From: a virus
DNA: 64,000 bases
Reading direction: 5' to 3' (one strand)
IMG/VR virus record: IMGVR_UViG_3300030102_007485
Span: 13,880 to 77,879 of that record
Position numbers and translations under genes: made by a program. The first letter of the stretch is position 1. Each line of letters begins with the position of its first letter. A model generated the notes under the pieces. The model saw only the letters and a list, made by a program, of their open reading frames with translations. It did no database searches and was not told the DNA's origin. Positions 16,347 through 33,424 of the stretch are shown here, piece by piece.

Positions 16347-17579
16347 ATGACAGAAAAAATAAAAATTATGACTATATCTGACTCGCCTTTTGCCCCCTCC
16401 GGAGTCGGAACTCAAACAAGATACATGATCGAAGCACTTTTAAAGACAGGTAAGTTTTCTGTTTTTTCAATCGCAGGAGCAATTCAGCACGCAGATTATA
16501 GACTGATAAAAACAGATGAGTATGGTGAGGATTGGATAACTCAACCCATTGATGGGTATGGAAACCCTGAAGTCATAAGGTCTATGGTGATGAATAAGAA
16601 ACCAGATATCCTATGGTTTATGACTGATCCAAGATTCTATGAATGGTTGTGGAATATGGACTCAGAAATTAGAAAAAACGTTCCTATGGTTTATTATCAT
16701 GTTTGGGACAACTATCCATATCCAACTTTTAATAGGAAGTGGTATCTTTCTAATGACTTTGTTGCAACAATCAGCAAAGTCACAGATGATATTGTAAAGA
16801 CCGTTGCACCAGAGGTGGAATCTCTTTATGTGCCTCATGCAGTTGAGTCTGAGGTTTTTTCAAAAAAAGATGTGCCAAAAAGAGAGGGGTTGAAAGATAA
16901 GTTTGTCTTCTTTTGGAATAATAGGAATGCTAGGCGTAAACAGTCGGGTACTTTGATTTTCTGGTTTAAGGAGTTCCTTGATAAGGTTGGGCATGACAAG
17001 GCATCACTGATCATGCACACGGAACCAAATGATCAGCATGGGCAGGATTTAATTGCAATATTGGAAGAACTGGATTTAACAGACGGTCAGGTCTTGTTAT
17101 CGACTCAAAAAATGCCATTAGAGCAGTTGGCAGGTCTTTACAACATGGCAGACTGCACTATAAACATTTCTGATGCTGAAGGGTTCGGATTGGCAACACT
17201 AGAGTCTTTGTCTTGTGAAACGCCAATTATAGTTACGATGACAGGTGGATTACAAGAACAGGTAACCGATGGAGAAGAGTGGTTTGGTGTCGGAATAAAT
17301 CCAACAGCAAAGGCGATCATCGGTTCTCAGCAGGTGCCATGGATATATGAAGATAGGATTTGCAAAGAGGACTTCCTAGCAGCGTTAGAAAGGATGTACA
17401 ACATGTCAGACGAAGATCGTGCGACGATGGGAAGGAAGGGCAGAGAGCACGTAGAAAAGAATTATTCCTTCCCTCAGTATGAGTCTAAGTGGGTTGACCT
17501 TCTTGAGGACTTACATCAAAGACATGGATCTTGGGAAACTAGAAAGAATTATCAAACTTGGGAGTTGACAGAATTATGA
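16347..17579 (+). CDS. GT4 (GT-B) glycosyltransferase
   Basis: NRNARRK, SDAEGFGLATLES. Confidence 0.9.
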   Translation: MTEKIKIMTISDSPFAPSGVGTQTRYMIEALLKTGKFSVFSIAGAIQHADYRLIKTDEYGEDWITQPIDGYGNPEVIRSMVMNKKPDILWFMTDPRFYEWLWNMDSEIRKNVPMVYYHVWDNYPYPTFNRKWYLSNDFVATISKVTDDIVKTVAPEVESLYVPHAVESEVFSKKDVPKREGLKDKFVFFWNNRNARRKQSGTLIFWFKEFLDKVGHDKASLIMHTEPNDQHGQDLIAILEELDLTDGQVLLSTQKMPLEQLAGLYNMADCTINISDAEGFGLATLESLSCETPIIVTMTGGLQEQVTDGEEWFGVGINPTAKAIIGSQQVPWIYEDRICKEDFLAALERMYNMSDEDRATMGRKGREHVEKNYSFPQYESKWVDLLEDLHQRHGSWETRKNYQTWELTEL

Positions 17580-18850
17580 AAATACTATTAGAGGCACCAA
17601 TCTTAACTCAATCTGGGTATGGAGAGCACGCAAGGTTTGTTTTTCGCGCACTTGAGCAAATTCCAGGTATAGACGTATACATTAATCCTCTGTCGTGGGG
17701 AACAACTAGTTGGGTTTCCGACGCTAACTCTGAGAGAGGGGCAATCGATGAAAACATAAGAAAGAATGTTTTGTATGTTCAAAATTGTAAAAATGCGTCT
17801 GTAGAACCTCAATATGATGTGCAGATTCATGTTGGCATTCCAAATGAATTTCAAAAAAAGGCAAAATATTCAGTTTGTGTTACTGCTGGAATTGAAACGG
17901 ACAAGGTTCACCCCAAGTGGATTGCAAACATTGCGTCTGGCATAGACAAAATAATTGTGCCATCTGAACATGCAAAGTCTGGGTTTGTGAGCACTGAATA
18001 TCAGTTTCAGCAGCAGGATGGTCAGGCGATCACTTTAGGTTGCCGAGCACCTGTCGAGGTTGTTCCTTATCCCGTTAAGGATTTGAAATCAGACCCAATA
18101 GACGTTCAGTTTGAGCATGATTTTAATTTCTTGACGGTTGCTATGTGGGGCAAGAGAAAGAACTTAGAAAACACAATAAAATGGTTTGTTGAGGAGTTTA
18201 GGGAGGAAGAGGTTGGACTGATCCTGAAAACCAACCTATCTAGAAACTCGACACCAGATAGAGAGTTGTCTAAGGCATCTATATCAAGCATCTTGTCGAA
18301 TATGGGAGAAAGAAAGTGCAAGGTGTACCTATTGCATGGAGAACTCTCTGAGGAGCAACTACATTCCTTATATGAACACCCCAAGGTCAAAGCATATGTC
18401 ACAGCAACGCATGGGGAGGGTTTTGGTCTTCCTCTTTTTGAGGCGGCATATTCAGGACTGCCGATTGTTGCGACGGATTGGAGCGGTCACTTGGACTTTT
18501 TAACCGCAGAAGTCAAGGACAAGAAATCAAAAAAGTTAAAATTAAAAAAACTTTTTGCCAAAGTAGATTATAATCTAGATAACGTGCCACAAGACGTAGT
18601 TTGGGAAAACATCATATATCAAGATTCCAAGTGGGCGTTTCCGAAAGAAAAGTCTTTTAAAGATCAGATTAGAAAGTGCTATAAGCAATATGGTGTTTAT
18701 AAGTCGTTTGCTAAGACCTTAAAAGAGTCCGTAGTGGAAGAGTATGAGTATTCAAAGGTGTTGGAGCAAATGAAGACCGCACTTATTCCCGCCGAGATGC
18801 TTCCAGACCCTGCTTGGGCAGACGCTTTATCGTCAATAGAGATATTGTGA
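17576..18850 (+). CDS. GT4 glycosyltransferase (start 17576)
   Basis: SGYGEHAR, RKNL, HGEGFGLPLFEA. Confidence 0.9.
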   Translation: MKILLEAPILTQSGYGEHARFVFRALEQIPGIDVYINPLSWGTTSWVSDANSERGAIDENIRKNVLYVQNCKNASVEPQYDVQIHVGIPNEFQKKAKYSVCVTAGIETDKVHPKWIANIASGIDKIIVPSEHAKSGFVSTEYQFQQQDGQAITLGCRAPVEVVPYPVKDLKSDPIDVQFEHDFNFLTVAMWGKRKNLENTIKWFVEEFREEEVGLILKTNLSRNSTPDRELSKASISSILSNMGERKCKVYLLHGELSEEQLHSLYEHPKVKAYVTATHGEGFGLPLFEAAYSGLPIVATDWSGHLDFLTAEVKDKKSKKLKLKKLFAKVDYNLDNVPQDVVWENIIYQDSKWAFPKEKSFKDQIRKCYKQYGVYKSFAKTLKESVVEEYEYSKVLEQMKTALIPAEMLPDPAWADALSSIEIL

Positions 18851-19683
18851 AAATAGGATTTTTGTCAGATTTTTTTGAGCAACACTTGCTTGGCGGCGCT
18901 GAACTGAATGATGGTGTTTTGATAGATCACTTACAGAAAAGTCATCAAGTTATCCGCTTGATTAGTTCTGCTACAACCAAATCTGACATTGATTCTGTTG
19001 ATTTTGTAATAGTCTCCAATTTCGCAAGTGCGAACCCTCAGTTGCTAGACTACATCATATTTTCTAAACCTTATTTGGTGTACGAGCATGATCACAAATA
19101 TGTTACAAATAGGGATCCATCTAAATTCAAAAATTTTAATATCCCAAACGAATTTATTGTAAATAGGGAGTTGTACGCTTCGGCAAGAAAAGTAGTTTGT
19201 CTGAGCAGTAGTCAGACTTCTATAATTGAATCAAATTTAGGTTTAAAGAATTTGGAAAATATATCTTGTAGTTTGTGGAGTCAAAAGAGACTAAACCTTC
19301 TAAGAGAACTTAGTAAGGTTGAAAAAAATCAAATTTTTGCAATAATGGATTCTGCCAATCCTATAAAAAATACTGTGCTCGCTCAAAAGATGTGTGAACA
19401 AAAAAGCATTCCTTACGAACTTATAAGCAGTAAAGACCAAGAGCAGTTTATAAGAATTCTATCTAGGTATGAGGGTTTGGTATTTATCCCTGGCGTTCTG
19501 GAGTCGTTGTCTCGATTGGTTACCGAGGCAAAAATGATGAATTGTAAAATAATTACAACTCCAAAGATGCTGGGTGCTTCTTACGAAGATTGGTTTTCTC
19601 TCTCTGGTGAACCCCTTATAGACGTCATAGAGGAGAACGTCGCCCGTGCATTGAATCTTTTTGGAGAAATTATAGAACAATGA
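18847..19683 (+). CDS. GT-B glycosyltransferase-like protein (GTG start 18847)
   Basis: GGAELND, ESLSRLVTEAK. Confidence 0.75.
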   Translation: MKIGFLSDFFEQHLLGGAELNDGVLIDHLQKSHQVIRLISSATTKSDIDSVDFVIVSNFASANPQLLDYIIFSKPYLVYEHDHKYVTNRDPSKFKNFNIPNEFIVNRELYASARKVVCLSSSQTSIIESNLGLKNLENISCSLWSQKRLNLLRELSKVEKNQIFAIMDSANPIKNTVLAQKMCEQKSIPYELISSKDQEQFIRILSRYEGLVFIPGVLESLSRLVTEAKMMNCKIITTPKMLGASYEDWFSLSGEPLIDVIEENVARALNLFGEIIEQ

Positions 19684-20588
19684 TTGTTATAACTGGAGCA
19701 AATGGGTTTATAGGCAAGAACTTGTTGAAAAGTTTTCCTAAAAATCAAGACATTATTGCTGTTGATTACTCACACAATAATCTAAAGCAGGAAATAAAGC
19801 AACGAAAAAAGCATTTATATTTGTTAAGTCCAAAGGACTTTTTGGACATGTTTAGATCAGGACCTTGTTCGATAAGTTTTGTGTTTCACCAAGGTGCTTG
19901 CACAGATACTACCTGCCACGACACAGCGTACATGCTTGAAAGAAACTACGACTACACGTACAAACTAATAAACTTATGCGTGTCATCCTCAACACCTTTA
20001 GTGTATGCAAGTTCTGCCTCGGTTTATGGTGACGGACCTTTTAGCGAAACGTCTCAAATGAATCCTAAAAACATTTATGCAAAATCAAAAAGTATGATCG
20101 ACGATTATGTGTCCGTTATAAGTCAGACCACTAAATCGCAAATTACCGGACTGAGGTATTTTAACGTGTATGGTCCCTTTGAAGAGAGCAAGGGTAAAAT
20201 GTCTTCTGTATTGAATCAGTTTAAAAAGCAGATCGATACAACGGGAACTATAAAAATATTTGAAAACAGTCAGGCATATAAAAGAGATTTTATATTTGTG
20301 AATGATATTGTAAAAATAAACAAGCATTTTTATGAAAGCGGACATTCGGGTATATTCAATTGTGGCACCGGACAGGCAGAAAGATTTACTGAAATACCAA
20401 GAGTCTTAAAAAAATATTATGAGTTTGATATAATTGAGATACCAATGCCGCAAACTTTGATTGGTAAATATCAAGAGTTTACAGAATCTGACACAGCAAA
20501 TCTGAGAGGTTTTGGGGAATACAAGGAGGGGTTCCTTTCCCTTGAGCAGGGAATTGAGGAGTACGTCAAATATTGGGAAAAAGAGTAG
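19680..20588 (+). CDS. hldD: ADP-L-glycero-D-manno-heptose 6-epimerase
   Basis: VITGANGFIG, FHQGACTDT, YASSASVYG, YAKSK, LRYFNVYG, KGKMSS, YQEFTESD. Confidence 0.92.
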   Translation: MIVITGANGFIGKNLLKSFPKNQDIIAVDYSHNNLKQEIKQRKKHLYLLSPKDFLDMFRSGPCSISFVFHQGACTDTTCHDTAYMLERNYDYTYKLINLCVSSSTPLVYASSASVYGDGPFSETSQMNPKNIYAKSKSMIDDYVSVISQTTKSQITGLRYFNVYGPFEESKGKMSSVLNQFKKQIDTTGTIKIFENSQAYKRDFIFVNDIVKINKHFYESGHSGIFNCGTGQAERFTEIPRVLKKYYEFDIIEIPMPQTLIGKYQEFTESDTANLRGFGEYKEGFLSLEQGIEEYVKYWEKE

Positions 20589-20977
20589 CGTTTGTTAACG
20601 GGTGTTTTGATGTTTTACACTTTGGTCATTTGAAGTTGTTAGAGTTTGCCCGCAATGATGCGGATTTTTTAATTGTGGCAATCGACAGCGATTCTCGTGT
20701 AAAAGAGTCAAAGGGTGACTCAAGACCCTTCAACAAGCAAGAGGTAAGAAAATACTTTTTACAGTCCTTGAGGTTTGTAGATCGTGTAGAGGTTTTTGCA
20801 TCGGATTCAGAACTTGAGCAACTAGTTAGGTTGAACAATCCAGATGTGATGATCGTTGGGTCTGATTATCGCAATAAAACGGTGATTGGTTCCCAATATG
20901 CTAAGGAACTAAAGTTTTTTGAGAGAATAGATGACCATTCAACAACAAAAATATTGCAGCATACTTCTAATAGGTGA
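20573..20977 (+). CDS. rfaE2: Heptose-1-phosphate adenylyltransferase (HldE C-terminal/RfaE2)
   Basis: NGCFDVLHFGH, KGDSRPFN, GSDY, STTKI. Confidence 0.9.
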   Translation: MGKRVAFVNGCFDVLHFGHLKLLEFARNDADFLIVAIDSDSRVKESKGDSRPFNKQEVRKYFLQSLRFVDRVEVFASDSELEQLVRLNNPDVMIVGSDYRNKTVIGSQYAKELKFFERIDDHSTTKILQHTSNR

Positions 20978-21728
20978 TTCGTGTGTGGACAAGTTCCACT
21001 ATGGCACTTGTGATAGGATAAGTCCAGAGGCACCAGTATCTGTATTTAAGCATATTAAGACTGAAGAAAGAGACGGCATGTGCCTGAATGTCAAGATGAA
21101 TCTATTGGCATTCGGTTTTGCAGAAATTTCTGTTATTACCAATGCAGAGAGTATTTCCAAGGAAAGGTTTATAGATGCCAATTCTGGACAGCATTTATTG
21201 AGAACTGATTTCGGTGAAAGGGAGAAATTAAAACCCTTTATGGTTACCTCAAATGTAGAGAAGGATATAGCAGGTTATGACTATGTGGTTATTTCGGACT
21301 ATGAAAAAGGGTTTATTACCTATGAGACCGCTGAGAAAATAGTCACTTCATGTGTTAAAAATGGTGTTCCTGTTTTTGTTGACTCTAAAAAGCGAGACCT
21401 GTCTTGTTTTGACGGTGCAATTATAAAAATAAATGAAAAAGAATTCGATGTCCTAGATAAGACAACTGTCAATAAGGAAAACTTGGTTGTTACTTATGGA
21501 AAGGGCGGCGCGAAATGGAAAGGGATTTCTTATCCCACCAACGTGGTAGAAGTCTCAGATGTGAGTGGTGCAGGAGATACCTTTCTTGCCGCATTGGTCT
21601 ATGGACACTACGCGTTTGGAAGTATGGACGAAGCAATAAGGTTAGCAAACAGGTGTTCCGGGTTTGTTGTTCAGAAAAGTGGAACGTATGCGCTGAGTTG
21701 GCAAGATGTACAAGACATATGTAATTGA
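20931..21728 (+). CDS. rfaE1: Heptose-7-phosphate kinase (HldE N-terminal/RfaE1, PfkB family)
   Basis: RISPEAPV, ISDYEKG, DVSGAGDTF. Confidence 0.9.
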   Translation: MTIQQQKYCSILLIGDSCVDKFHYGTCDRISPEAPVSVFKHIKTEERDGMCLNVKMNLLAFGFAEISVITNAESISKERFIDANSGQHLLRTDFGEREKLKPFMVTSNVEKDIAGYDYVVISDYEKGFITYETAEKIVTSCVKNGVPVFVDSKKRDLSCFDGAIIKINEKEFDVLDKTTVNKENLVVTYGKGGAKWKGISYPTNVVEVSDVSGAGDTFLAALVYGHYAFGSMDEAIRLANRCSGFVVQKSGTYALSWQDVQDICN

Positions 21729-22047
21729 TATAGACGGTACAATATGTACCAAAACTGATGGAGATTATCGAGATGCCCGCCCTTTTGAAGACAGGATTGC
21801 GGTGCTAAACGAATTGCATGATCGAGGTCATCAGATAATATATTTAACCGCTAGGGGAATGGGTCGCTTTAACAATGATGAATATTTGGCGAATAGGATG
21901 TTTTACAAACTTACAAAAGATCAACTAGAGCAGTGGGGTGTCAAGTATACTTCCCTGTTTTTGGGCAAACCCGCGGGAGATATATATGTCGATGACAAAG
22001 GGTGCAGTGACGTTGATTTCTTTAGTACCAGGAGATTTGAACAATGA
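21706..22047 (+). CDS. Small HAD phosphatase
   Basis: DIDGTIC, TARG, GKP..DIYVDDK. Confidence 0.85.
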   Translation: MYKTYVIDIDGTICTKTDGDYRDARPFEDRIAVLNELHDRGHQIIYLTARGMGRFNNDEYLANRMFYKLTKDQLEQWGVKYTSLFLGKPAGDIYVDDKGCSDVDFFSTRRFEQ

Positions 22048-22409
22048 CCGACAAAACACATTTGGATATGCATTTTGTCCCAAAGGGTTGGGGGTTTGAG
22101 AAGTGGATTGTAAACTGTGATGAGTATTGTGGTAAGTTATTGTATTTTGTAAAGGGTAAAAGGTGCTCATGGCACTATCACGAATTAAAAGACGAGGTGT
22201 TCTACATACAGTCTGGAAAGATATTAGTGAAATACTCAGAGTCAGATGACATAGGATCTGCACAAGAGAGGGTCCTGGCAAGGGGTGATAACTTCCATGT
22301 ATACAGGGGATTGAGGCATCAAATGATCGCACTAGAGGACACAGAATTGTTTGAGTTCTCGACACAACATTTCGATTCGGATAGTTATAGGATTCAAAAG
22401 GGGGACTAA
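22044..22409 (+). CDS. Cupin sugar isomerase-like protein
   Basis: KGWG.E, SWHYH..KDE, HQM, EFST. Confidence 0.85.
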   Translation: MTDKTHLDMHFVPKGWGFEKWIVNCDEYCGKLLYFVKGKRCSWHYHELKDEVFYIQSGKILVKYSESDDIGSAQERVLARGDNFHVYRGLRHQMIALEDTELFEFSTQHFDSDSYRIQKGD

Positions 22410-22410
22410 A

Positions 22411-23226
22411 TTGAATTATCTTTTTATATGCATGAAGCGAGGCGGGCAGCACGGTGTTGTCAATTGGTTTGCTCAACAGAACAGGCACAGTACCCTTCAC
22501 TTAAATAATTGTATCAAGGGTTGGGAGCAAAATAGACTTCTCCCTATGAAAGAGCACATGGTTGTCCACTATAGATATGCAGGACAAAACCACGATATTA
22601 AAAACTATTTTGTCGATCACAAATTTGATCCCAAGAACAGCAAAGAGTTGAGGGAGCAATTTTATAAAGCAGATTTTTCAGATGTTGTAGATAAGATTTA
22701 TAACATAGAAGATCTGACGATCAGAGAATTCAATCAAAGGCAAATGTGGGATTATGAGGACATGGGGGCAAATAGTAAGTCGATAATTATTTTGCGAGAT
22801 CCGTATAACTTTATTGCCTCGTGCCTTCAGCGACTTGTGAACCCCCCTGATCCTGGCGCAACGGACGTTGGGTTAGAATTACCAAGAAGAATGGAGGATT
22901 GGAAGGAGCACGCAAAGCAGGTCTTAGACGGCACCGAGACCACCCAAGAAACAGAGTTTATTAGTTTCAATGAGTGGTTCGCCAGCAAAGATTACAGAGA
23001 GTCCATTTGTGACAATTTGGATTTGACTTTTACAGATTTTGGAATCAACGATGTTATGAATTTTGGCAGTGGTAGTTCTTTTGATAGGCAAAAGTTTGAT
23101 GGATCTGCCCAAAAGATGAGCGTCCTATCCAGGTACGAATCATGGAAAGATCATTCTGCGTTTAAGCATTTGGTAGATGATGAGGTTGAGTATTATGCAA
23201 AAGAAATTTTTGGTATAAAGTTGTGA
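22411..23226 (+). CDS. Sulfotransferase-fold protein (TTG start 22411)
   Basis: KRGGQH PAPS-loop-like motif; ILRDPYNFIAS. Confidence 0.6.
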   Translation: MNYLFICMKRGGQHGVVNWFAQQNRHSTLHLNNCIKGWEQNRLLPMKEHMVVHYRYAGQNHDIKNYFVDHKFDPKNSKELREQFYKADFSDVVDKIYNIEDLTIREFNQRQMWDYEDMGANSKSIIILRDPYNFIASCLQRLVNPPDPGATDVGLELPRRMEDWKEHAKQVLDGTETTQETEFISFNEWFASKDYRESICDNLDLTFTDFGINDVMNFGSGSSFDRQKFDGSAQKMSVLSRYESWKDHSAFKHLVDDEVEYYAKEIFGIKL

Positions 23227-23978: not shown

Positions 23979-23988
23979 GGGGGTTAGA

Positions 23989-25453: not shown

Positions 25454-26261
25454 GCATTTGGTCGCTGGTCCTTGGATTGGTGAGTTTGGTTGGGAATTAT
25501 TTGCTTGGCAGGCATACATCAGGGCAATGTCAAGACTTTATGAAAAAACAACAATAATTTGTAGAAGCAGTTCTGTGCACTTGTATGAAGATTTTTCAAA
25601 TGACTTTATTGACTGCAGTCCCACTGACGGACAAGCAGATTCTTTTTTTATGAATGGGGTAGACTTGAATTTACTTTGCAATAAAGTGCTTAGGGAGAAT
25701 CGTCAACTTCTAGGTCCAAAAACAGTGTTTGTGCCACCCAGGCGAGTGGGTTTTCCGCCACAAACCTCTTATTTGGAGGCAATTTCTTTTGGACAGCATT
25801 CTGTAAAACCGGAATATATAAAGTACGGACGTAAGAACAAGAGGCAATACGACTATGTTTTCCACATCAGGAGCAGAGAACTTAGAAAGCAGGATAATTG
25901 GAGTATTGAAAATTGGCAAAACTTAAGAAAACTTTTGGGAGACGACAAAAGAATTGCGTGCATTGGGACGAAAAGGTCTTCAGGTATCATTGGGGATGTT
26001 GACGACCTCAGAGATCAACCTCTGAAGGAGGTTTGTGATGTTCTGTACAATTCCAGTTGTGCATTTGGTCCTTCTTCTGGACCTATGCATCTTGCAAGTT
26101 TGTGTGGTACTCCACATGTTGTCTGGTCTCGACCCGAGAACAAAAATAGGTACGAAATTACATGGAATCCACTAAGTACAAAAGTGTTGTTCATGGGTGA
26201 TCATTCGTGGCATCCTAGTTCAGAGTATGTGTATGAAAATTATAAAAAATGGAGTGAGTAA
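25437..26261 (+). CDS. GT9-like glycosyltransferase
   Basis: GEFGWEL; GPSSGPMHLASLCGTP. Confidence 0.7.
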   Translation: MSKLDKHLVAGPWIGEFGWELFAWQAYIRAMSRLYEKTTIICRSSSVHLYEDFSNDFIDCSPTDGQADSFFMNGVDLNLLCNKVLRENRQLLGPKTVFVPPRRVGFPPQTSYLEAISFGQHSVKPEYIKYGRKNKRQYDYVFHIRSRELRKQDNWSIENWQNLRKLLGDDKRIACIGTKRSSGIIGDVDDLRDQPLKEVCDVLYNSSCAFGPSSGPMHLASLCGTPHVVWSRPENKNRYEITWNPLSTKVLFMGDHSWHPSSEYVYENYKKWSE

Positions 26262-27863
26262 GTGAAGATAGTAGGTTTTCAGTCTGGACATGATGTTTCG
26301 TACTGTATTTTAGAAAATGGAGTGCCCATAGTGCACGAAGAGTTGGAGAGGGTCATAAGAAAGAAAGAACCAGGTGGTGATGGTTTAGAATTCTTTTTTG
26401 AAAGAAACAAAGATTTGCAGGATATCAAGCATTTCGCCTTTGGTTGTTTTGGTTCGAGGAGCGAGTATTGGTCTAAGCGAGCGCGATTTGATCCATTTAA
26501 AAAAGAGTTTGATAAAAAAATGAAGGACGTTTTGAGGTCGTCTGGAGGGAGGTATTATGAACTGGGTCACCATTTGAGTCATGCAGCAAACGCATACTAT
26601 ACAAGTCCATTTGATGAGGCAATGATAATAACAGTCGATGGAGGCGGTTCAGAGTCTCCTGGACAAACAACCGCACTGACTATAAATTATGGCATACAAA
26701 ACAAGATAAATAGACTACACATATATCCAGAACATCAGGTAAATTTAGGGAGTTTATGGTTCAAATTTACAGGAGAGATCTTTGGTCTTTCCACTGGTTA
26801 TCCAATAGGAAATCAGGCAGGTTCGGTCATGGCAATGGCAACCATGGGTGAGGCAAAGTACCTAGACTTGATGCACCTAAACATGGCGTACGATACAAAT
26901 ATGCCTAATTTTATAAAATTAAAAGAAATTGCTTCAAGGTCAGAACAAGACTCTTTTGATGTCGCAGCAACTTTGCAAGTCTATACAGAGACTACATTTA
27001 GAGATGCAATAGAGTTTTGGATGAACAAGTACAAACCCAACAATGTCTGCTTTTCGGGAGGAGTGTCTCTTAATTGTGTAATGCTTGGTAAAATAAAAGA
27101 CTGGTTTCCTTTTGTAAAGCATATTTTTTGTGACCCTGTGCCTTATGACGGCGGATTATCGCTAGGATCAGCAAGGTATGTCTGGCATCACTTGTTGGAT
27201 AATCCAAAAATAAAGTCTGCGGAAAATATGACGCCATATCTTGGCAGACCATACAATGAAAATGAAATCACTGCATCCATTGAGGAATACAGGTCATCAG
27301 GCAAAATAAGGACAAAAAGCACTACAGATGACGAAGTTTTAGATCTTCTTGATTCTCAAAAGATAGTTGCTGTATTTGGTGGCGCATCCGAATCTGGTCG
27401 CCGCGCTCTTGGTAATAGGAGTATACTGGCAGACCCTAGATCTGATAAGATGAAAGACACGATTAATCAGAGAGTCAAGCATCGTCAGTGGTACAGACCC
27501 TTTGCCCCTTCAATCTTGATAGAGGACACCAAGGATTGGTTTGAGGACGCCGTTTACAGTCCTTATATGTCATTTGCACTAAAATTTAAAAAAGACAAGG
27601 CGTCACAAGTCCCAGCGGTGGTGCATGAAGACGGAACAGGAAGGTTGCAAACGGTACAATCTTCTCTTAACCCATGGTACCACAATTTTATTACAAAATG
27701 GAAAGAAAAGTCAGGAGTGCCAATATTGCTGAACACCAGTTTTAATGACAGGGAACCAATAGTTGAGACTCCAGAGGATGCAATCAAGTGCTTTATTGGA
27801 ACTGATATTGATTATTTGTACTTTTATGAAACTGGTAATCTGGTCTCGAAAGGGGACGTTTAG
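26262..27863 (+). CDS. O-carbamoyltransferase (NodU/CmcH family)
   Basis: GHD, HHLSHAA, DGGG, GGVSLN, RALGNRSILADPR, RPFAPS, LLNTSFN. Confidence 0.93.
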   Translation: MKIVGFQSGHDVSYCILENGVPIVHEELERVIRKKEPGGDGLEFFFERNKDLQDIKHFAFGCFGSRSEYWSKRARFDPFKKEFDKKMKDVLRSSGGRYYELGHHLSHAANAYYTSPFDEAMIITVDGGGSESPGQTTALTINYGIQNKINRLHIYPEHQVNLGSLWFKFTGEIFGLSTGYPIGNQAGSVMAMATMGEAKYLDLMHLNMAYDTNMPNFIKLKEIASRSEQDSFDVAATLQVYTETTFRDAIEFWMNKYKPNNVCFSGGVSLNCVMLGKIKDWFPFVKHIFCDPVPYDGGLSLGSARYVWHHLLDNPKIKSAENMTPYLGRPYNENEITASIEEYRSSGKIRTKSTTDDEVLDLLDSQKIVAVFGGASESGRRALGNRSILADPRSDKMKDTINQRVKHRQWYRPFAPSILIEDTKDWFEDAVYSPYMSFALKFKKDKASQVPAVVHEDGTGRLQTVQSSLNPWYHNFITKWKEKSGVPILLNTSFNDREPIVETPEDAIKCFIGTDIDYLYFYETGNLVSKGDV

Positions 27864-28597
27864 TGAAAAGGTTTTTGTGCACAAGCAATAAGTATGTAGA
27901 TATTGTGGCAGATCACGCGCTTCTTTATAATAAGTTCTCTTCAGAAAGGAGGGAAGTAGAAGTCTTAGGGTTTGACCCTCCCTCGGTTGAATATCCGGAT
28001 AATTACAAGTTTGTCTCCATGGGTAAGCAAGAGGACTTTCCTAATAAGGACTGGTCTACTCCAATTTTGCCTTTTATTGATGCAATAGAGGGTAGGTGTT
28101 TTGAGTTTTGGTGGGATGACATGTTTCCAATTAGACCGTTCCGAGAAGACTTGTATGAAGAGGGGTCACGATTGATTGAGGATGGGAAGGTTCAAAAAGT
28201 CCATTTTTTCATGGGGTCGAAAGAACAATACTATTCGTGCAAACCTTATAACCAAAACTTTATGGTACTTTCGCAAGAAGCAGAGTACCGCTCAGGATTA
28301 CCCGCCGCTTTTTGGGACAAGGAATATTTTTTAAAAAACTTAAAACCAGGCATGACTCCATGGCAATATGAAATACACAATCAACCAAAAATGTATCGCG
28401 ATGGTGCGATACAATTGATACCAAAAAATGAACCAATTGTGGGATGGGTCAACATGTTTAGGCAGGGAAAGTTTAATGATTGGATGTGGAACAATTACAA
28501 GAATAGTGAAACTGGTCATTTTGCTTGGAATAAGTTTCAAAAATTGACGCCCGACGTGGCAGCAATCGTGGGATCCTATGAAGGAAAGGAATTGTGA
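27863..28597 (+). CDS. Hypothetical protein, possible GT-A-like enzyme
   Basis: WDDMF motif and TPWQYE; cluster context. Confidence 0.5.
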   Translation: MKRFLCTSNKYVDIVADHALLYNKFSSERREVEVLGFDPPSVEYPDNYKFVSMGKQEDFPNKDWSTPILPFIDAIEGRCFEFWWDDMFPIRPFREDLYEEGSRLIEDGKVQKVHFFMGSKEQYYSCKPYNQNFMVLSQEAEYRSGLPAAFWDKEYFLKNLKPGMTPWQYEIHNQPKMYRDGAIQLIPKNEPIVGWVNMFRQGKFNDWMWNNYKNSETGHFAWNKFQKLTPDVAAIVGSYEGKEL

Positions 28598-29697
28598 TGA
28601 AAATACCTCAGTTTATGCCTCTCGTCGGAAAGGACGAATATACTGCAATTAAGAAATGCTTTGAAGATAATTGGATTACCGAAGGACCACAGGCGAAAAT
28701 TTTTAAAGAAAAGTTGTTAAAGTTGATTGGGTCCAAGCACGGTGAGTTCGCTCCAAACGGCACACTGGCAATCTACTTAGCATTAAAGGCGGCGGGGGTC
28801 CAACCGGGTGATGAGGTGTTGGTACCTAATTTCACCTTTATTGCATCTGCTACATCTGTTGTCATGGTTGGTGCAACTCCAATTTTTGTGGATGTAGACG
28901 AGAACTTGCAAATAGATCTAAGTAAGTGTGGTGCACGCCTATCTGACAAGACCACGGCGATTATGACCGCTCACATGTACGGCACTTGTGGAGATATGCC
29001 ATCGGTTATGCAGTTTGCAAGAAAGCATGGACTTGTTGTTGTTGAGGACGCCGCACAAGCACTCGGAGTTACTTGGGACGGTCAGCACGCTGGGACTTTT
29101 GGAGATGTTGCAACTTTTTCTTTTTTTGCTGATAAGACAATCACTTGTGGCGAAGGTGGTTTTGTAATCACAAACGACGACAACGTGGCAGAAGAGTTAG
29201 TTTATCTAAGAAATCAAGGAAGGATAAACAGGGGCACCTTTGTCCATCCAGAGATAGGGTATAACTTCAGAATAACAGACATGCACGCAGCAATGGGCAA
29301 TGTTCAAATAGGCAAACTAGATTGGATAGTGGGTAGAAAACTAGAGATATACCAGGCGTATAAAAAAAGATTGCAAAGCAATTCAAGGTTTTCTTTTTTT
29401 GGTCCCATGAAAAAGTCTGGGTTTATACCATTTAGAGTTTGTATTATTGATAAACTGGGGCAAGCGTCAAACGTGATGGATAAGTTGCAAGAACATGGCG
29501 TTGAACCACGAACTTTTTTCTACCCAATGCACAAGCAACCATGTTTTTCGGACATTGTCAAAAAAGCAAACTACTCAGAGGACGAGTTCTCTGTGTCTAA
29601 TAAAATGTATGAAAGTGGTGTTTGTCTTCCCACCTTTTTGCAAATTACGGATGAAGAAATAGACTACATTTGTGATATAATCAATAGTAATTTTTAG
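28594..29697 (+). CDS. DegT/DnrJ aminotransferase, GDP-perosamine synthase-like
   Basis: EDAAQ; FSFFADKTITCGEGG with catalytic Lys; GYNFR. Confidence 0.88.
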   Translation: MMKIPQFMPLVGKDEYTAIKKCFEDNWITEGPQAKIFKEKLLKLIGSKHGEFAPNGTLAIYLALKAAGVQPGDEVLVPNFTFIASATSVVMVGATPIFVDVDENLQIDLSKCGARLSDKTTAIMTAHMYGTCGDMPSVMQFARKHGLVVVEDAAQALGVTWDGQHAGTFGDVATFSFFADKTITCGEGGFVITNDDNVAEELVYLRNQGRINRGTFVHPEIGYNFRITDMHAAMGNVQIGKLDWIVGRKLEIYQAYKKRLQSNSRFSFFGPMKKSGFIPFRVCIIDKLGQASNVMDKLQEHGVEPRTFFYPMHKQPCFSDIVKKANYSEDEFSVSNKMYESGVCLPTFLQITDEEIDYICDIINSNF

Positions 29698-29708
29698 GAG
29701 GTTATATT

Positions 29709-30866
29709 ATGAAATACCCGTTGGTCAAAGACACAATACGTGATAGCGACATAGATTCTCTTTGTGAGTGGTTGAAGACGTATCCAAGGTTATCTAAGGG
29801 TCCTTTGACGCCTGTCTTTGAGGACAAGTGGTCAAAGTGGTTAGGTTCAAAATATTCTGTTTATGTAAATTCTGGTTCTTCTGCAAATTTACTTATATTA
29901 AGCGCTCTTGTGGAGACAGGTAGAATCTCTAGGGACGCAAAGGTCGTAGTGCCTGCTGTTAGTTGGGCAACTGACCTCGCCCCAGTGATGCAACTAGGGT
30001 TGTCACCTGTTTTGTGTGATTGTAATATGGAGGATCTTTCAATAGACCTGGAGCAGTTTGAAAAGGTTTGCCAAGTCGAACGACCTCAAGCAATAATTTT
30101 TGTCAGTGTTCTTGGATTGGTGCCAGATATGGAGCGTTTGACGTCCATTTGCGAGAGATATGGAGTTATTCTTATAGAAGATACTTGTGAATCCTTCGGC
30201 AGCGAGTACCAGGGTAAAAAGTTGGGTACTTTTGGACTCGCTTCCACGTTTAGTTTGTATTTTGGTCATCACCTGTCAACGATTGAGGGTGGAATTGTCT
30301 CCACTGACGATGCTGATCTGTACAATGCTCTGTTAAGTATTCGGAGTCATGGTTGGATGCGAGATTGCGAAAGTGAATACGCACTAAAAAAACACAAAGA
30401 GTGGCAAACAGAAGAATTTAACAGTTGTTATACTTTTTACTACCCAGGGTTCAACCTTCGCAGTACTGATCTCCAGGCACATATCGGAATTAGACAGATG
30501 GATTATGCAGATACCGTGAATCGCACTCGTGAACAAAATTTTAGATATTATTTGCAATCGATTTCAGATGAAATTTGGAAACCGATGTATCGTGAGGGTT
30601 GTTTTGTCTCTAATTTTTGCTATCCTTTGGTAGTAGACAACCGACAGACTGTGTGTGACCACCTAGAACGAAACGGCATTGAAACAAGACCGCTTATTGC
30701 GGGGTCTATGTCTAGTCAACCATTTTATGTTCAAAGATATGGTGAAAGTTTGATGCCAAATGCAGACAGAGTACACAAAAATGGTCTGTATATACCAAAT
30801 AATCATGCTATGACACCACAGCAGGTAGGTTTTATATCATCTGTCGTAAATCGATCCATTCAGTAA
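29709..30866 (+). CDS. PLP-dependent 3-dehydratase, ColD-like
   Basis: NSGSSANL, EDTCES; SLYFGHHLSTIEGG has His in place of the catalytic Lys. Confidence 0.85.
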   Translation: MKYPLVKDTIRDSDIDSLCEWLKTYPRLSKGPLTPVFEDKWSKWLGSKYSVYVNSGSSANLLILSALVETGRISRDAKVVVPAVSWATDLAPVMQLGLSPVLCDCNMEDLSIDLEQFEKVCQVERPQAIIFVSVLGLVPDMERLTSICERYGVILIEDTCESFGSEYQGKKLGTFGLASTFSLYFGHHLSTIEGGIVSTDDADLYNALLSIRSHGWMRDCESEYALKKHKEWQTEEFNSCYTFYYPGFNLRSTDLQAHIGIRQMDYADTVNRTREQNFRYYLQSISDEIWKPMYREGCFVSNFCYPLVVDNRQTVCDHLERNGIETRPLIAGSMSSQPFYVQRYGESLMPNADRVHKNGLYIPNNHAMTPQQVGFISSVVNRSIQ

Positions 30867-31366
30867 TGAATTTTCCTAAAAAACAGGCAAAAACCCAATC
30901 TTTTGATGGTCTGGTCATCGATAATCCAGATTGTTACCATGATTTTAGAGGATATTACTGGACAGTCTGCAAAGATGATGAGAAAATATACAATCATGAC
31001 AAGATCACTGTCTCAAAAAGGAATGTTCTTAGGGGGATCCATGGTGACTTTAACACCGTCAAGATGGTATCGTGCGTATACGGTGAAATCTACTGTGTGG
31101 TTGTGGACAAGAGACCAGATTCCAAGACATACGACCAGTGGCGCTGGATAATGCTCAGTCACACCAATAGAACAACCGTAAAAATCCCCGCAGGTGTTGG
31201 ATTGTCCTATCTTGTAACCAGTGACGAGGCGACAGTGCTTTATAAACTCTCTTATAGAGGGTCTTATCAGGATTCAGACAACCAATTTACATACAAGTGG
31301 GACGACCCAAATTTGGGGATAGATTGGCCAATTAGTTCTCCAATATTGCAAAAAAGAGATAAATAA
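30866..31366 (+). CDS. RmlC-like NDP-sugar 3,5-epimerase
   Basis: DFRG, NVLRGIHG, DKRPDS.TY, WDDPNLGIDWP. Confidence 0.88.
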   Translation: MNFPKKQAKTQSFDGLVIDNPDCYHDFRGYYWTVCKDDEKIYNHDKITVSKRNVLRGIHGDFNTVKMVSCVYGEIYCVVVDKRPDSKTYDQWRWIMLSHTNRTTVKIPAGVGLSYLVTSDEATVLYKLSYRGSYQDSDNQFTYKWDDPNLGIDWPISSPILQKRDK

Positions 31367-31404
31367 AGAAAAAAAAACATAAATATATGGTAGTATGGTG
31401 TAGT

Positions 31405-31572
31405 ATGACTTACGAATTATGGCAACTGGTGACTTATGGAGAGGGAGAACCGCCGACCCCCTTGTTTAAGATCGCAGAATCTAAAGAATTTGAAGATATT
31501 TATAGACTATTCATGAAAGAGGTAAAAACTAAGTTGTGTGTAATAGTCCTACAAAAGGAGGGCAAGAATTGA
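31405..31572 (+). CDS. Small hypothetical protein (likely start 31405)
   Basis: Overlaps gmd start. Confidence 0.5.
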   Translation: MTYELWQLVTYGEGEPPTPLFKIAESKEFEDIYRLFMKEVKTKLCVIVLQKEGKN

Positions 31573-32534
31573 AGCGAGCACTCATAACTGGCATTAGCGG
31601 ACAGGACGGAAGTTACTTGGCAGAGTATCTACTTGGTTTGGGATATGAAGTCCACGGCACCGTCCGACGCCACTCTGTTTCTGAGAATCAGACAGCAAGA
31701 CTTAAAGACATAGAGAACAGCATACAGACTCATTATGCGGATCTAACAGATCACCACTCCCTCAGAAGGGTCTTCAATGTCTCACAACCAGATGAGATCT
31801 ACAACCTTGCCGCTATGAGTCATGTTAGGGTTAGTTTCGATATGCCAGCATACACAATACAAACGAATGCACTGGGTGTTCTTAATATGTTGGAGATTTA
31901 CAGAGAGAGTTTTCCAAAAGCAAAGTTCTATCAAGCATCATCATCTGAAATGTTTGGAAACTCGATAGATTCGGATGGAATTCAAAGACTTAGCACCCCA
32001 ATGAACCCTGTCAGTCCGTATGGGTGCTCTAAGGTTATGGGATATAATCTGGTTAGGCACTATAGAAATGCTTACGGATTACATGCCTGTAATGGCGTTT
32101 TGTTCAATCATGAGTCGCCTCGTAGAGGAACAAACTTTGTGACCAACAAGGTTGTAAAAACCGCGGTACAAATAAAAAAAGGCGTTGTAGACAAATTAGA
32201 ACTTGGGAACCTAGACGCAAAAAGGGATTGGGGTCACTCTCTTGACTACGTCAGAGCAATGCATATGATCACAAATCACACCACACCAGATGAGTTTGTC
32301 ATTGCAACTGGGATAACTCATTCTGTCAGAGACTTGTGTGAAACCGTTTTTTCTAAACTGGGCATGAATTATAAAGATTATGTCGTACAAAATCAAAAAT
32401 ATATGCGACCAGAAGAGTTGGAATATCTCAAAGGTGATCCAACTCGCGCCAAAGAAATTTTAGGATGGGAACCAGAGTATACCTTTGATTCTATGATCGA
32501 AGAGATGATAGCAAGATGGATGCGCGAGATCTGA
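31569..32534 (+). CDS. gmd: GDP-mannose 4,6-dehydratase (TTG start 31569)
   Basis: ALITGISGQDGSYL, YNLAAMSHV, YQASSSE, SPYGCSK, FNHESPRRG, RDWG; SD AAGGAGG. Confidence 0.96.
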   Translation: MKRALITGISGQDGSYLAEYLLGLGYEVHGTVRRHSVSENQTARLKDIENSIQTHYADLTDHHSLRRVFNVSQPDEIYNLAAMSHVRVSFDMPAYTIQTNALGVLNMLEIYRESFPKAKFYQASSSEMFGNSIDSDGIQRLSTPMNPVSPYGCSKVMGYNLVRHYRNAYGLHACNGVLFNHESPRRGTNFVTNKVVKTAVQIKKGVVDKLELGNLDAKRDWGHSLDYVRAMHMITNHTTPDEFVIATGITHSVRDLCETVFSKLGMNYKDYVVQNQKYMRPEELEYLKGDPTRAKEILGWEPEYTFDSMIEEMIARWMREI

Positions 32535-33113: not shown

Positions 33114-33424
33114 TAGAGTTGTTTTTAGTATTGTCAGTATGTCTAAACCTTTTCGGATTCATCTATGTTAGATGGGTCTTGAGGCAATTCAATGACTTAA
33201 ACGATAATTTAAAATCTCTGTTTGATGATTTGATGATGTATGGCGTGCATGTTGACTCAATCCACCAAACAGAGATGTATTACGGAGACTCTACCCTGAA
33301 AATGCTAATAGACCACACTAAGGAATTGACAAAACAAATAGAGGAGTATAAAGATTACCTTTTTCCGGGTGAAGAAACAGACGAATATGAAGCAAACGAC
33401 GACACGACGACGCAAGAGAACTAA
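33110..33424 (+). CDS. Small protein with N-terminal TM helix and coiled coil
   Basis: Hydrophobic residues 2-21. Confidence 0.6.
   Translation: MIELFLVLSVCLNLFGFIYVRWVLRQFNDLNDNLKSLFDDLMMYGVHVDSIHQTEMYYGDSTLKMLIDHTKELTKQIEEYKDYLFPGEETDEYEANDDTTTQEN

What the first reader, a model, noticed from the sequence alone, without database searches (positions are those of the whole stretch)
16347..32534. Cytoplasm-only glycan cluster beside the baseplate genes: candidate virion glycosylation/heptosylation system
Seen: ~20 closely packed genes. They include ADP-heptose enzymes (RfaE1, RfaE2, HldD), two GT9-like and four other GT-B transferases, Gmd, Per-like, ColD-like and RmlC-like enzymes, and carbamoyl-, methyl- and sulfotransferase-like proteins; a PMM sits at 6159. 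No Wzx/Wzy/ABC exporter, no initiating phosphoglycosyl transferase and no evident polytopic membrane protein occur in the cluster. Known: GT9 enzymes use ADP-heptose, and AAH/TibC-type enzymes heptosylate protein Ser residues. LPS-like gene clusters occur in some marine myoviruses with unclear function. Inference: the acceptor is cytoplasmic, most plausibly the Ser/Thr-rich tail proteins encoded just downstream, giving a decorated glycan coat on the virion.
Basis: partly seen in the sequence, partly recalled or inferred. Interest (0 to 1): 0.8.

Follow-up and report, generated by a model that had tools for sequence, protein, structure and literature searches.

The report
Soluble glycan-building island, marine myovirus
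An uncultured ocean phage carries 19 back-to-back genes for soluble enzymes that make unusual activated sugars and join them into a decorated sugar chain. This is a known kind of phage gene cluster whose target (the phage's own particle or the host surface) is still unproven, but two cultured relatives now make it testable.

Summary
Window 16347-32534 is a gap-free block of 19 plus-strand genes:
- an ADP-heptose pathway;
- Gmd, two DegT enzymes and an RmlC-like enzyme;
- a carbamoyltransferase and a methyltransferase;
- at least six glycosyltransferases.

Fold or atlas evidence supports the two "GT9-like" calls. The "sulfotransferase-like" label (22351) and the GT-B label for 18814 could not be verified.

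I found no polytopic membrane protein, phosphoglycosyl transferase, Wzx or ABC-2 permease in the contig, in four relatives' islands, or in four complete related genomes.

New here: every relative, including cultured Flavobacterium phage immuto, Microcystis phage Mel-JY01 and Rhodothermus phage RM378, keeps a trio of nuclease, GT4 and GT4. The sugar genes around it vary.

The virion-glycosylation reading is only partly supported:
- The [ST]GS enrichment in fibre proteins also occurs in relatives that lack the heptose genes.
- Adjacency to the baseplate is lost in the cultured relatives.
- DNA glycosylation is unlikely, because published LC-MS of immuto DNA shows no glycosylated nucleoside.

This is a new member of the known "LPS-like clusters of large marine myoviruses". 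The scan has flagged the same kind many times on other DNA.

The parts
15475..16338 (+). PD-(D/E)XK / 5'-3' exonuclease-like gene, the conserved left anchor of the island
   Evidence: PHROG exonuclease families, E 4e-21. It lies directly upstream of the GT4 pair in every relative examined.
16347..17579 (+). GT4a, a retaining GT-B glycosyltransferase and lineage core gene
   Evidence: Pfam Glycos_transf_1, E 1.3e-12. It is 59-62% identical in G001, G005 and G006 and 30% in phage immuto. The best PDB profile hit is chlorovirus B736L over its full length, E 2.4e-18. At least 7,996 cluster representatives match.
17558..18850 (+). GT4b, the second conserved GT-B glycosyltransferase
   Evidence: Pfam Glycos_transf_1, E 6e-8. 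It always follows GT4a in relatives.
18814..19683 (+).
   Evidence: No Pfam, NCBIfam or PDB match, and hhalign against GT4a gives probability 0.8%. It is conserved at 42-44% in G001 and G006.
19680..20588 (+). HldD, ADP-glyceromanno-heptose 6-epimerase
   Evidence: TIGR02197, 287 bits, above the 274.6 cut-off.
20573..20977 (+). RfaE domain II-like heptose-1-phosphate adenylyltransferase
   Evidence: TIGR02199, E 1.1e-33, below its cut-off.
20931..21728 (+). RfaE domain I-like heptose-7-phosphate kinase
   Evidence: TIGR02198, E 6.7e-48, below its cut-off. Across 17 records it occurs only in those that also hold the 25437 family.
21706..22047 (+). 113-aa HAD phosphatase, a candidate stand-in for GmhB
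   Evidence: TIGR01689 capsule biosynthesis phosphatase, E 1.3e-11.
22044..22409 (+). 121-aa cupin, a possible sugar-phosphate isomerase or epimerase
   Evidence: Pfam Cupin_2, E 6.5e-8. It is the most conserved island protein, at 71-83% identity in relatives.
22351..23226 (+). 291-aa protein; the 'sulfotransferase-like' label is unverified
   Evidence: No family or PDB match. It is 65% identical in L005 and L016.
23223..23978 (+). Compact (251 aa) GT9-like GT-B glycosyltransferase, from a family seen only in viral and metagenomic sequences
   Evidence: AF2 pLDDT 95.7. Foldseek hits GT9 3tov, WaaC and WaaF at E 3.6e-10. 148 homologues, all metagenomic. None found in 50,697 GenBank phage records.
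23989..24588 (+). SAM-dependent methyltransferase
   Evidence: Pfam Methyltransf_23, E 1.7e-12.
24581..25453 (+). Glyco_trans_1_2 (CgeB-type) glycosyltransferase
   Evidence: Pfam PF13524, E 2e-24. It co-occurs with 23223 and 25437 in all loci fetched.
25437..26261 (+). Second compact (274 aa) GT9-like glycosyltransferase
   Evidence: Pfam GT9, E 0.12. Atlas neighbours are viral clusters with PF01075 in 26-67% of members. The C-terminal SSGPMHLASLCG block is nearly invariant in 10 homologues.
26262..27863 (+). NodU/CmcH-type O-carbamoyltransferase
   Evidence: Pfam Carbam_trans_C, E 5.6e-62, and Carbam_trans_N, E 5.3e-21.
27863..28597 (+). GT-A fold glycosyltransferase, newly recognised here
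   Evidence: 557 representatives. AF2 pLDDT 97.8. Foldseek hits WrtF, RmlT, POMGnT1 and TarS/TarP at E about 4e-6.
28594..29697 (+). DegT-family sugar aminotransferase
   Evidence: Pfam PF01041, E 1.4e-99. Best NCBIfam matches are LegC/PseC-like, below their cut-offs.
29709..30866 (+). DegT-family enzyme, RfbH/ColD-like (dehydratase or aminotransferase)
   Evidence: Pfam PF01041, E 2.7e-66. Best NCBIfam match is RfbH, below its cut-off.
30866..31366 (+). RmlC-like sugar 3,5-epimerase
   Evidence: Pfam dTDP_sugar_isom, E 9.1e-33.
31536..32534 (+). GDP-mannose 4,6-dehydratase (Gmd)
   Evidence: Pfam GDP_Man_Dehyd, E 8.3e-116. TIGR01472 scores 375 bits, below the 415 cut-off.
6159..6908 (+). Phosphomannomutase, a likely feeder for GDP-mannose, lying outside the island
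   Evidence: Pfam PMM, E 6.7e-29.
33369..34097 (+). Late sigma factor-like gene, the conserved right-hand neighbour of the island
   Evidence: phrog_234, E 8.4e-6. Conserved at 54-60% in G001, G005 and G006.

Best explanation
The block is a phage-autonomous, cytoplasmic glycan assembly line that belongs to a whole lineage of abundant marine myoviruses.

Shown:
- It encodes its own donor supply: ADP-heptose (kinase, adenylyltransferase, epimerase, a small HAD phosphatase), and GDP-mannose-derived 6-deoxy or amino sugars (PMM upstream, then Gmd, two DegT enzymes and an RmlC-like epimerase).
- It encodes at least six soluble glycosyltransferases: two GT4, one CgeB-type, two compact GT9-like and one GT-A.
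- It encodes tailoring enzymes: an O-carbamoyltransferase and a methyltransferase.

Inferred:
- The two GT4 enzymes, which every relative keeps next to a nuclease gene, lay down a conserved inner part on a conserved acceptor.
- The variable genes build an outer part that differs from phage to phage, much like a serotype.
- The acceptor is made or present in the infected cytoplasm. It is most likely a phage-encoded protein that ends up on the virion, so the particle is sugar-coated without any membrane step.

Which protein is the acceptor is not known. The downstream fibre proteins are only one candidate.
For: Gene content.

No membrane or export component:
- In the contig.
- In about 118 ORFs of four relatives' islands.
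- In complete genomes of immuto and Mel-JY01, in G008 (305 kb, terminal repeats) and G004 (349 kb), and in G005 (85% complete).

The nuclease-GT4-GT4 trio is conserved in all relatives, with variable sugar genes around it.

The GT4 pair occurs in phages of Flavobacterium, Microcystis and Rhodothermus, whose envelopes differ.

GT4a is as conserved as core genes. It is 59-62% identical, against 54-57% for PhoH and 44-48% for gp6. It has at least 7,996 cluster representatives. So it is not stuffer DNA.

The best solved relative of GT4a is chlorovirus B736L. B736L is a GDP-mannose-binding GT4 from a virus group known for autonomous capsid glycosylation (PMC4691112, PMC9614988).

The compact GT9-like fold recurs in PBCV-1, Bodo saltans virus and other giant viruses whose hosts lack LPS.

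The heptose kinase occurs only in records that also carry the 25437 family: 6 of 6 against 0 of 7, Fisher p 0.017, not corrected for relatedness.

Precedent for phage virion glycosylation: mycobacteriophages (Freeman 2023, as cited in PMC12619734 and PMC12801897).
Against: - No glycan has been observed on any virion of this lineage.
- The [ST]GS motif and S/T richness of the fibre proteins do not track the heptose or GT9 genes.
- In RM378 the GT4 pair sits among replication genes (RNR, Erf, helicase), with no structural genes nearby.
- In immuto and Mel-JY01 the island is 25-75 kb from the baseplate.
- Soluble or peripheral GT-A and GT-B enzymes are also what ordinary O-antigen pathways use, so lack of an exporter does not exclude use of host carrier and export systems.
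- B736L's own acceptor is unknown (PMC9614988).
- 57% of this phage's genome was not available.
- The hydropathy scan is crude.
Confidence: 0.45

Rival explanations
1. Host-surface remodelling. The enzymes work at the cytoplasmic face of the host inner membrane, on host lipid-linked intermediates (the lipid A-Kdo core or undecaprenyl-linked O-units). The altered glycan is then exported by the host's own MsbA/Lpt, Wzx/Wzy or ABC systems. This changes the cell surface during infection, for example to block superinfection or to stop progeny adsorbing to debris. It is the reading favoured in the literature for cyanophage and pelagimyophage 'LPS' clusters.
For: - Published interpretation for P-SSM2 and for pelagimyophage clusters (PMC1079782, PMC7029224, PMC12801897).
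- GT9 enzymes of known function mostly act on the LPS inner core, and WaaC and WaaF are among the best structural matches.
- All the enzyme classes here are typical of O-antigen and capsule loci.
- Island hypervariability resembles O-antigen locus diversity.
Against: - No initiating transferase, flippase, polymerase or ABC-2 permease in any of nine records, four of them complete.
- The conserved GT4 pair is shared by phages of three bacterial phyla with unlike envelopes.
- The 23223 family was found only in viral and metagenomic sequences. Structural look-alikes occur in giant viruses of eukaryotes.
- These are lytic-type large myoviruses with limited time to renew the host surface (inference).
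Confidence: 0.33
2. DNA hypermodification. The transferases attach sugars to modified bases of the phage DNA to evade restriction, as in T-even phages and the glycan-hypermodified DNAs reported in 2024.
For: - The GT4 pair always follows a nuclease gene, and in RM378 it lies among replication genes.
- Phage GTs are known to hypermodify DNA with diverse glycans (Pyle 2024, as cited in PMC12619734).
- GT4a has a weak hit to 'GT4 in conflict systems'.
Against: - LC-UV-MS/MS of DNA from phage immuto, which carries the homologous island, showed only dA, dC, dT and fdPreQ1 in place of dG. No glycosylated nucleoside was reported (PMC10516641).
- No thymidylate-synthase or hydroxymethylase family gene in the contig or its closest relatives.
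- At least six transferases plus carbamoyl and methyl tailoring is far beyond any known DNA glycan (inference).
Confidence: 0.04
3. Other product. The island makes a soluble oligosaccharide, glycolipid or small-molecule glycoside used inside the infected cell, or parts of it are drifting cargo with no current role.
For: - GT4 relatives include BshA/MshA, sucrose-phosphate synthase and trehalose synthase types that act on small acceptors.
- Sullivan et al. raised 'stuffer DNA' for cyanophage clusters (PMC3037559).
Against: - Tight operon packing, and invariant catalytic-type residues across 21-68 homologues.
- High conservation of GT4a across thousands of clusters.
- Consistent co-occurrence of the same four transferases in distant lineages.
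These argue for a selected, multi-step polymer product.
Confidence: 0.13

Closest known systems
'LPS gene clusters' of large marine T4-like myoviruses (P-SSM2, S-SSM7, S-SM2; pelagimyophage host-recognition cluster)
   Same: - Large blocks of sugar-nucleotide enzymes and glycosyltransferases in marine myoviruses of about 180-250 kb.
- They sit near phoH and/or the tail-fibre region, are hypervariable between relatives, and have unknown function (PMC1079782, PMC3037559, PMC7029224).
- HldD homologues occur in P-TIM68, S-CAM3, S-SSM7 and P-SSM2.
- A compact GT9-like fold occurs in S-SM2 and S-T4.
   Different: - This is a different phage lineage. Its gp6-like baseplate protein finds immuto and Mel-JY01 at 31-33% identity and does not find cyanomyoviruses.
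- The island is anchored by a nuclease-GT4-GT4 trio, which is not described for those phages.
- The 23223 and 25437 families have no sequence match in any GenBank phage.
Autonomous virion glycosylation of giant viruses (chlorovirus PBCV-1 and NY-2A; Mimivirus fibril glycans)
   Same: - Virus-encoded Gmd and other sugar-nucleotide enzymes, soluble GTs and methyltransferases, working without a membrane export step (PMC4691112, PMC9614988).
- GT4a's best solved relative is chlorovirus B736L, matched over its full length.
- Compact GT9-like folds occur in PBCV-1, Bodo saltans virus and others.
   Different: - The hosts are eukaryotes.
- In those viruses the glycans have been solved chemically and located on capsid or fibrils. 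Here no glycan has been seen.
- Sequence identity is low, and B736L's own acceptor is unknown.
Mycobacteriophage virion O-glycosylation (Freeman et al. 2023)
   Same: Phage-encoded soluble glycosyltransferases decorate virion proteins in the cytoplasm (as cited in PMC12619734).
   Different: - That system has about two GTs and no sugar-nucleotide pathways.
- The hosts are actinobacteria.
- No homology was tested or found here. The paper was not available to read.
Bacterial autotransporter heptosyltransferases (TibC, AAH)
   Same: GT9-like GT-B enzymes that put heptose from ADP-heptose on protein Ser residues in the cytoplasm. TibC appears among the structural matches of ORF 23223 (rank 10, E 4e-6).
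   Different: - There is no NCBIfam BAHT hit.
- ORFs 23223 and 25437 are 251 and 274 aa, against about 400 aa for TibC.
- The LPS enzymes WaaC and WaaF and a Veillonella GT9 match better than TibC.
Wzx/Wzy- or ABC-transporter-dependent O-antigen and capsule loci of bacteria
   Same: The same enzyme classes (Gmd, DegT, RmlC-like, GT4, GT2-like, carbamoyl and methyl tailoring) and the same kind of locus-level hypervariability.
   Different: These loci are defined by an initiating phosphoglycosyl transferase plus a flippase and polymerase or an ABC exporter. None is present.

Membership tests
Glycosyltransferase family 9 (Pfam PF01075, heptosyltransferases) | Match to the family profile at its curated threshold | tested here: not met
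   ORF 23223 has no hit. ORF 25437 scores E 0.12 and 12.1 bits against a 22-bit cut-off. The six-frame search of the contig found nothing at E 0.001.
Glycosyltransferase family 9 (Pfam PF01075, heptosyltransferases) | GT-B fold closest to solved GT9 enzymes | tested here: met
   The ORF 23223 model has as top hits 3tov, WaaC (2h1h, 6dfe) and WaaF (1psw), at E 3.6e-10 to 4e-7 and TMq 0.55-0.70. ORF 25437 was supported only through atlas neighbours.
Glycosyltransferase family 9 (Pfam PF01075, heptosyltransferases) | Use of ADP-heptose as donor | not testable with these tools
   Indirect only. The heptose kinase occurs only in records that also carry the 25437 family: 6 of 6 against 0 of 7. The complete jumbo phage G004 has the family without the pathway.
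Bacterial autotransporter heptosyltransferases (BAHT: TibC, AAH; NCBIfam TIGR04414) | Match to the BAHT family model; about 400 aa | tested here: not met
   NCBIfam returned no family for ORFs 23223 and 25437 at E 0.01. Their lengths are 251 and 274 aa. TibC ranks below the LPS heptosyltransferases in the fold search.
Marine myovirus 'LPS-like' glycan gene clusters (descriptive class) | Multi-gene block of sugar-nucleotide enzymes and glycosyltransferases in a large marine myovirus genome, near phoH or the tail-fibre region, variable between relatives | tested here: met
   19 genes lie between phoH/nuclease and the late sigma/baseplate genes. Content differs between G000, G001, G005, G006 and G007. 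Class description from PMC3037559 and PMC7029224.
Wzx/Wzy- or ABC-dependent polysaccharide export locus | Initiating phosphoglycosyl transferase (PF02397) | tested here: not met
   Absent from 9 records, including 4 complete genomes. Controls were positive. PF00953 was not searched.
Wzx/Wzy- or ABC-dependent polysaccharide export locus | Wzx flippase (PF01943) or ABC-2 permease (PF01061); polytopic membrane proteins | tested here: not met
   Searches were negative. The hydropathy scan found no protein with three or more hydrophobic segments. One weak Polysacc_synt_C hit (E 1.4e-5) in G005 remains unresolved.
Virion protein glycosylation systems (mycobacteriophage or giant-virus type) | Glycan demonstrated on virion proteins | not testable with these tools
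   This needs glycoproteomics of purified virions. No data exist for this lineage.

The most novel reading that the evidence does not exclude
An abundant, globally distributed lineage of marine myoviruses coats its own virions with a heptose-containing, carbamoylated and methylated glycan, made entirely in the cytoplasm. GT4a alone has at least 7,996 protein clusters. A conserved GT4 pair would start the chain on a conserved virion protein, and a hypervariable gene island would give each phage its own 'glycan serotype'. This would be the bacterial-virus counterpart of chlorovirus and Mimivirus autonomous glycosylation, sharing enzyme families with them.
Probability: 0.4. Interest if true: 0.8.

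Novelty: new member of a known kind. Interest (0 to 1): 0.5.

Why it matters
Sugar-gene clusters in large ocean phages have been catalogued for twenty years without a demonstrated function. The default reading, host LPS modification, has never been tested.

This case adds three things:
- The clusters in this lineage are built around a conserved nuclease-GT4-GT4 core with a swappable sugar module.
- They never come with export genes, even in complete genomes.
- Homologous islands exist in cultured phages (Flavobacterium phage immuto, Microcystis phage Mel-JY01), so the acceptor can be settled at the bench.

If the virion is the target, phage particles in the sea carry variable glycan coats. That would bear on host recognition, on stickiness to marine gels, on grazing and decay, and on how phage 'serotypes' evolve.

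Tried and rejected
- Megablast of the whole cluster against GenBank phages found no match.
- tblastn of ORFs 23223 and 25437 against GenBank phages found no match.
- PDB sequence and profile searches for 23223, 25437, 22351, 18814 and 27863 gave nothing usable.
- ORFs 23223 and 25437 are not detectable paralogues by BLASTP.
- hhalign of the 18814 family against the GT4a family gave probability 0.8%. The GT-B label for 18814 stays unproven.
- Promoter, terminator and late-promoter motif scans gave nothing above shuffled expectation. Expression timing could not be inferred.
- The [ST]GS 'sequon' idea was rejected as evidence, because the enrichment is lineage-wide and independent of the heptose and GT9 genes.
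- 'Next to the baseplate' was rejected as functional evidence, because the cultured relatives break that adjacency.
- DNA glycosylation was largely rejected on the published immuto nucleoside analysis.
- A thymidylate-synthase-family gene was found only in the jumbo relatives, 45 kb from their cluster, and is uninformative.
- The Freeman 2023 and Pyle 2024 papers were not held and are cited only through papers that cite them.

Full report
**What is there**

The window is bases 13880-77879 of a 77,879-bp IMG/VR viral contig that CheckV rates 43% complete. Nearly all genes are on the plus strand.
- Upstream of the finding lie a PurZ/PurA-like adenylosuccinate synthetase, a NifU-like protein, a transglycosylase, a ClpP-type protease, PhoH and a PD-(D/E)XK-type exonuclease.
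- Downstream lie a late-sigma-like gene, a 3,907-aa protein, gp25- and gp6-like baseplate wedge genes, an 852-aa protein and a 3,375-aa protein.
- From 16347 to 32534 there are 19 overlapping or abutting ORFs, with a single 169-bp gap.

**Gene content**

Pfam and NCBIfam assign:
- two GT4 glycosyltransferases (16347, 17558);
- HldD (19680, above the equivalog cut-off);
- RfaE domain II (20573) and domain I (20931);
- a 113-aa HAD phosphatase (21706) and a 121-aa cupin (22044);
- a SAM methyltransferase (23989);
- a Glyco_trans_1_2 transferase (24581);
- a NodU/CmcH carbamoyltransferase (26262);
- two DegT enzymes (28594, 29709);
- an RmlC-like epimerase (30866) and Gmd (31536).
A PMM sits at 6159.

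Five ORFs had no family hit.
- ORF 23223 gave a very confident AlphaFold model on a 21-sequence alignment (pLDDT 95.7). Its best PDB matches are GT9 enzymes: 3tov, WaaC and WaaF, at E down to 3.6e-10 and TMq 0.68-0.70. TibC ranks tenth.
- ORF 25437 has a sub-threshold GT9 hit. Its atlas neighbours are viral clusters that partly carry PF01075.
- ORF 27863 belongs to a family of at least 557 representatives. It folds confidently (pLDDT 97.8) as a GT-A glycosyltransferase, with top hits WrtF, RmlT, POMGnT1, TarS and TarP.
- ORFs 22351 ('sulfotransferase-like') and 18814 (a possible further GT-B) stayed unassigned by every method available.

**Nothing membrane-bound**

- A Kyte-Doolittle scan finds no transmembrane-like run in the cluster, other than a buried helix in a DegT.
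- No protein with three or more hydrophobic segments occurs on the coding strand of the whole contig.
- Six-frame profile searches for Bac_transf, Polysacc_synt (Wzx) and ABC2_membrane were negative in this contig and in eight related records. The control genomes were positive. The eight records include the complete genomes of phage immuto, phage Mel-JY01, G008 (305 kb with terminal repeats) and G004 (349 kb).

**Relatives and anatomy of the island**

By its gp6-like protein, the nearest cultured phages are Microcystis phage Mel-JY01 (33%) and the Flavobacterium phage immuto group (32%).

IMG/VR relatives G001, G005, G006 and G007 share the flanks at identities typical of core genes: PhoH, nuclease, late sigma, gp25 and gp6. 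In all of them, and in six deeper relatives, the order nuclease, GT4a, GT4b is kept.
- In G000, G001, G005 and G006 the variable sugar genes lie between GT4b and the late sigma gene.
- In the deeper relatives they lie upstream of the nuclease, and the GT4 pair abuts the late sigma and baseplate genes.

The content varies.
- G001 lacks the carbamoyltransferase and RmlC.
- G005 (85% complete) lacks the heptose genes and both GT9-like families. In a 25-kb island it has instead two NeuB genes, a CMP-sugar synthetase, a CST-I-like sialyltransferase, GT8 and radical-SAM/B12 genes.

The same trio heads annotated sugar islands in two cultured phages.
- In immuto, genes 87-101 include GT2, two WecE, a methyltransferase, a mannosyltransferase, PglB-like, WcaG and WcaA.
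- Mel-JY01 has a similar island.
There the island is 25-75 kb from the baseplate. In Rhodothermus phage RM378 the trio stands alone among replication genes.

A second recurring module (23223, 24581, 25437, 27863, usually with the methyltransferase and the HAD) appears in unrelated viral contigs. These include the complete 349-kb jumbo phage, where it sits among GT2, FkbM and a GT-GT-methyltransferase fusion.

GT4a has at least 7,996 cluster representatives at E below 1e-10, on contigs up to about 190 kb. The lineage is therefore abundant.

**What it most likely does**

The enzymes form a coherent line.
- Donors are made: ADP-heptose, and GDP-mannose-derived 6-deoxy or amino sugars.
- At least six transferases join them.
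- A carbamoyltransferase and a methyltransferase finish the product.

The heptose kinase is found only in records that also carry the 25437 family (6 of 6 against 0 of 7; Fisher p 0.017, relatedness ignored). This fits heptose transfer by that enzyme.

Four observations favour an acceptor that does not depend on the host envelope:
- No initiating or export gene in any record.
- The GT4 pair is shared by phages of Bacteroidota, Cyanobacteria and Rhodothermota.
- GT4a matches chlorovirus B736L over its full length better than it matches any cellular GT4. B736L is a GDP-mannose-binding enzyme of a virus group that glycosylates its capsid autonomously (PMC4691112, PMC9614988).
- Compact GT9-like folds recur in PBCV-1, Bodo saltans virus and other giant viruses whose hosts have no lipid A.

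I therefore put a phage-encoded, probably virion, acceptor first, at 0.45.

- The [ST]GS enrichment is real: 24 against 4.4 expected in the 3,375-aa protein, with 0 of 500 shuffles reaching it. The homologous post-baseplate proteins of G005, G006, immuto and Mel-JY01 show it just as strongly, although those phages lack the heptose genes and GT9-like enzymes.
- The 3,907-aa protein is not S/T-rich.
- Adjacency to the baseplate is not conserved in the cultured relatives.
- Neither GT9-like protein is a BAHT (TibC/AAH) member.

**Rivals**

- Host-surface remodelling through the host's own carrier and exporters remains a serious alternative (0.33). It is the published default (PMC1079782, PMC7029224).
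- DNA glycosylation is unlikely (0.04). LC-UV-MS/MS of immuto DNA found only dA, dC, dT and fdPreQ1 (PMC10516641).
- A small-molecule product or drifting cargo gets the rest (0.13).

**Novelty**

Sugar clusters of this sort are known in P-SSM2, S-SSM7, S-SM2 and pelagimyophages, near phoH or the fibre genes, with unknown function (PMC3037559, PMC7029224). This scan has flagged the same kind in at least 64 other genomes. Those notes are leads, not evidence.

This is a new member of that kind, in a different lineage. Its useful additions are the conserved trio, the export-free complete genomes, and the cultured relatives in which the question can be settled.

**Limits**

- The hydropathy scan is crude.
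- PF00953 and Wzy were not searched.
- Co-occurrence counts are not phylogenetically independent.

Noticed in passing
window 1115-2116 (+): An adenylosuccinate-synthetase-like gene matches the PHROG named for PurZ, the 2-aminoadenine (Z-base) DNA pathway (phrog_1211, E 2.2e-70). Whether it is PurZ or an ordinary PurA was not tested.
   Followed up: no
window 21706-22409 (+): The ADP-heptose genes come with a 113-aa HAD and a 121-aa cupin instead of GmhB and SIS-type GmhA. The cupin is the most conserved island protein, at 71-83% identity in relatives.
   Followed up: partly
G005 31283-56421 (loci L039, L040): The closest well-assembled relative has a 25-kb island at the same site with a different chemistry. 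It holds two NeuB genes, a CMP-sugar synthetase, a CST-I-like sialyltransferase, GT8, radical-SAM/B12 genes and a weak MptE/Maf-like domain fused to a GT4. This points to a nonulosonic-acid glycan.
   Followed up: partly
G005 island (loci L039, L040): One of 20 island ORFs gave a weak Polysacc_synt_C hit (E 1.4e-5). No ORF there has more than two weakly hydrophobic segments, and PF01943 is absent. Which ORF gave the hit was not resolved.
   Followed up: partly
L009 4425-6935 (+), complete 349-kb jumbo phage G004: An 836-aa fusion carries Glyco_trans_1_2, GT2 and methyltransferase domains next to the GT9-like and GT-A core module. The architecture recalls the GT-GT-methyltransferase A064R of PBCV-1 (A064R description from PMC4691112).
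   Followed up: no
window 37262-48985 and 53790-63917 (+): Two giant structural ORFs of 3,907 and 3,375 aa flank the baseplate wedge genes. Only their N-terminal 15-25% is conserved in relatives.
   Followed up: no
window 2155-2652 (+): A 165-aa protein of unknown function recurs about 4 kb from the GT9-like core module in the jumbo-phage loci L009-L015 (35% identity), and in G001 and G006.
   Followed up: no
window 16347-17579 (+): The GT4a family saturated the search, with 7,996 of 8,000 scored candidates at E below 1e-10. Many lie on 140-190 kb contigs from Tara, JGI and ENA samples. The lineage seems very abundant yet has few cultured members.
   Followed up: no
Flavobacterium phage immuto (MW353176.1), the relative behind loci L002, L055, L057: This cultured relative replaces all dG with 7-(formylamino)methyl-7-deazaguanine (PMC10516641). 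Whether the window's phage has a related DNA modification was not examined.
   Followed up: no
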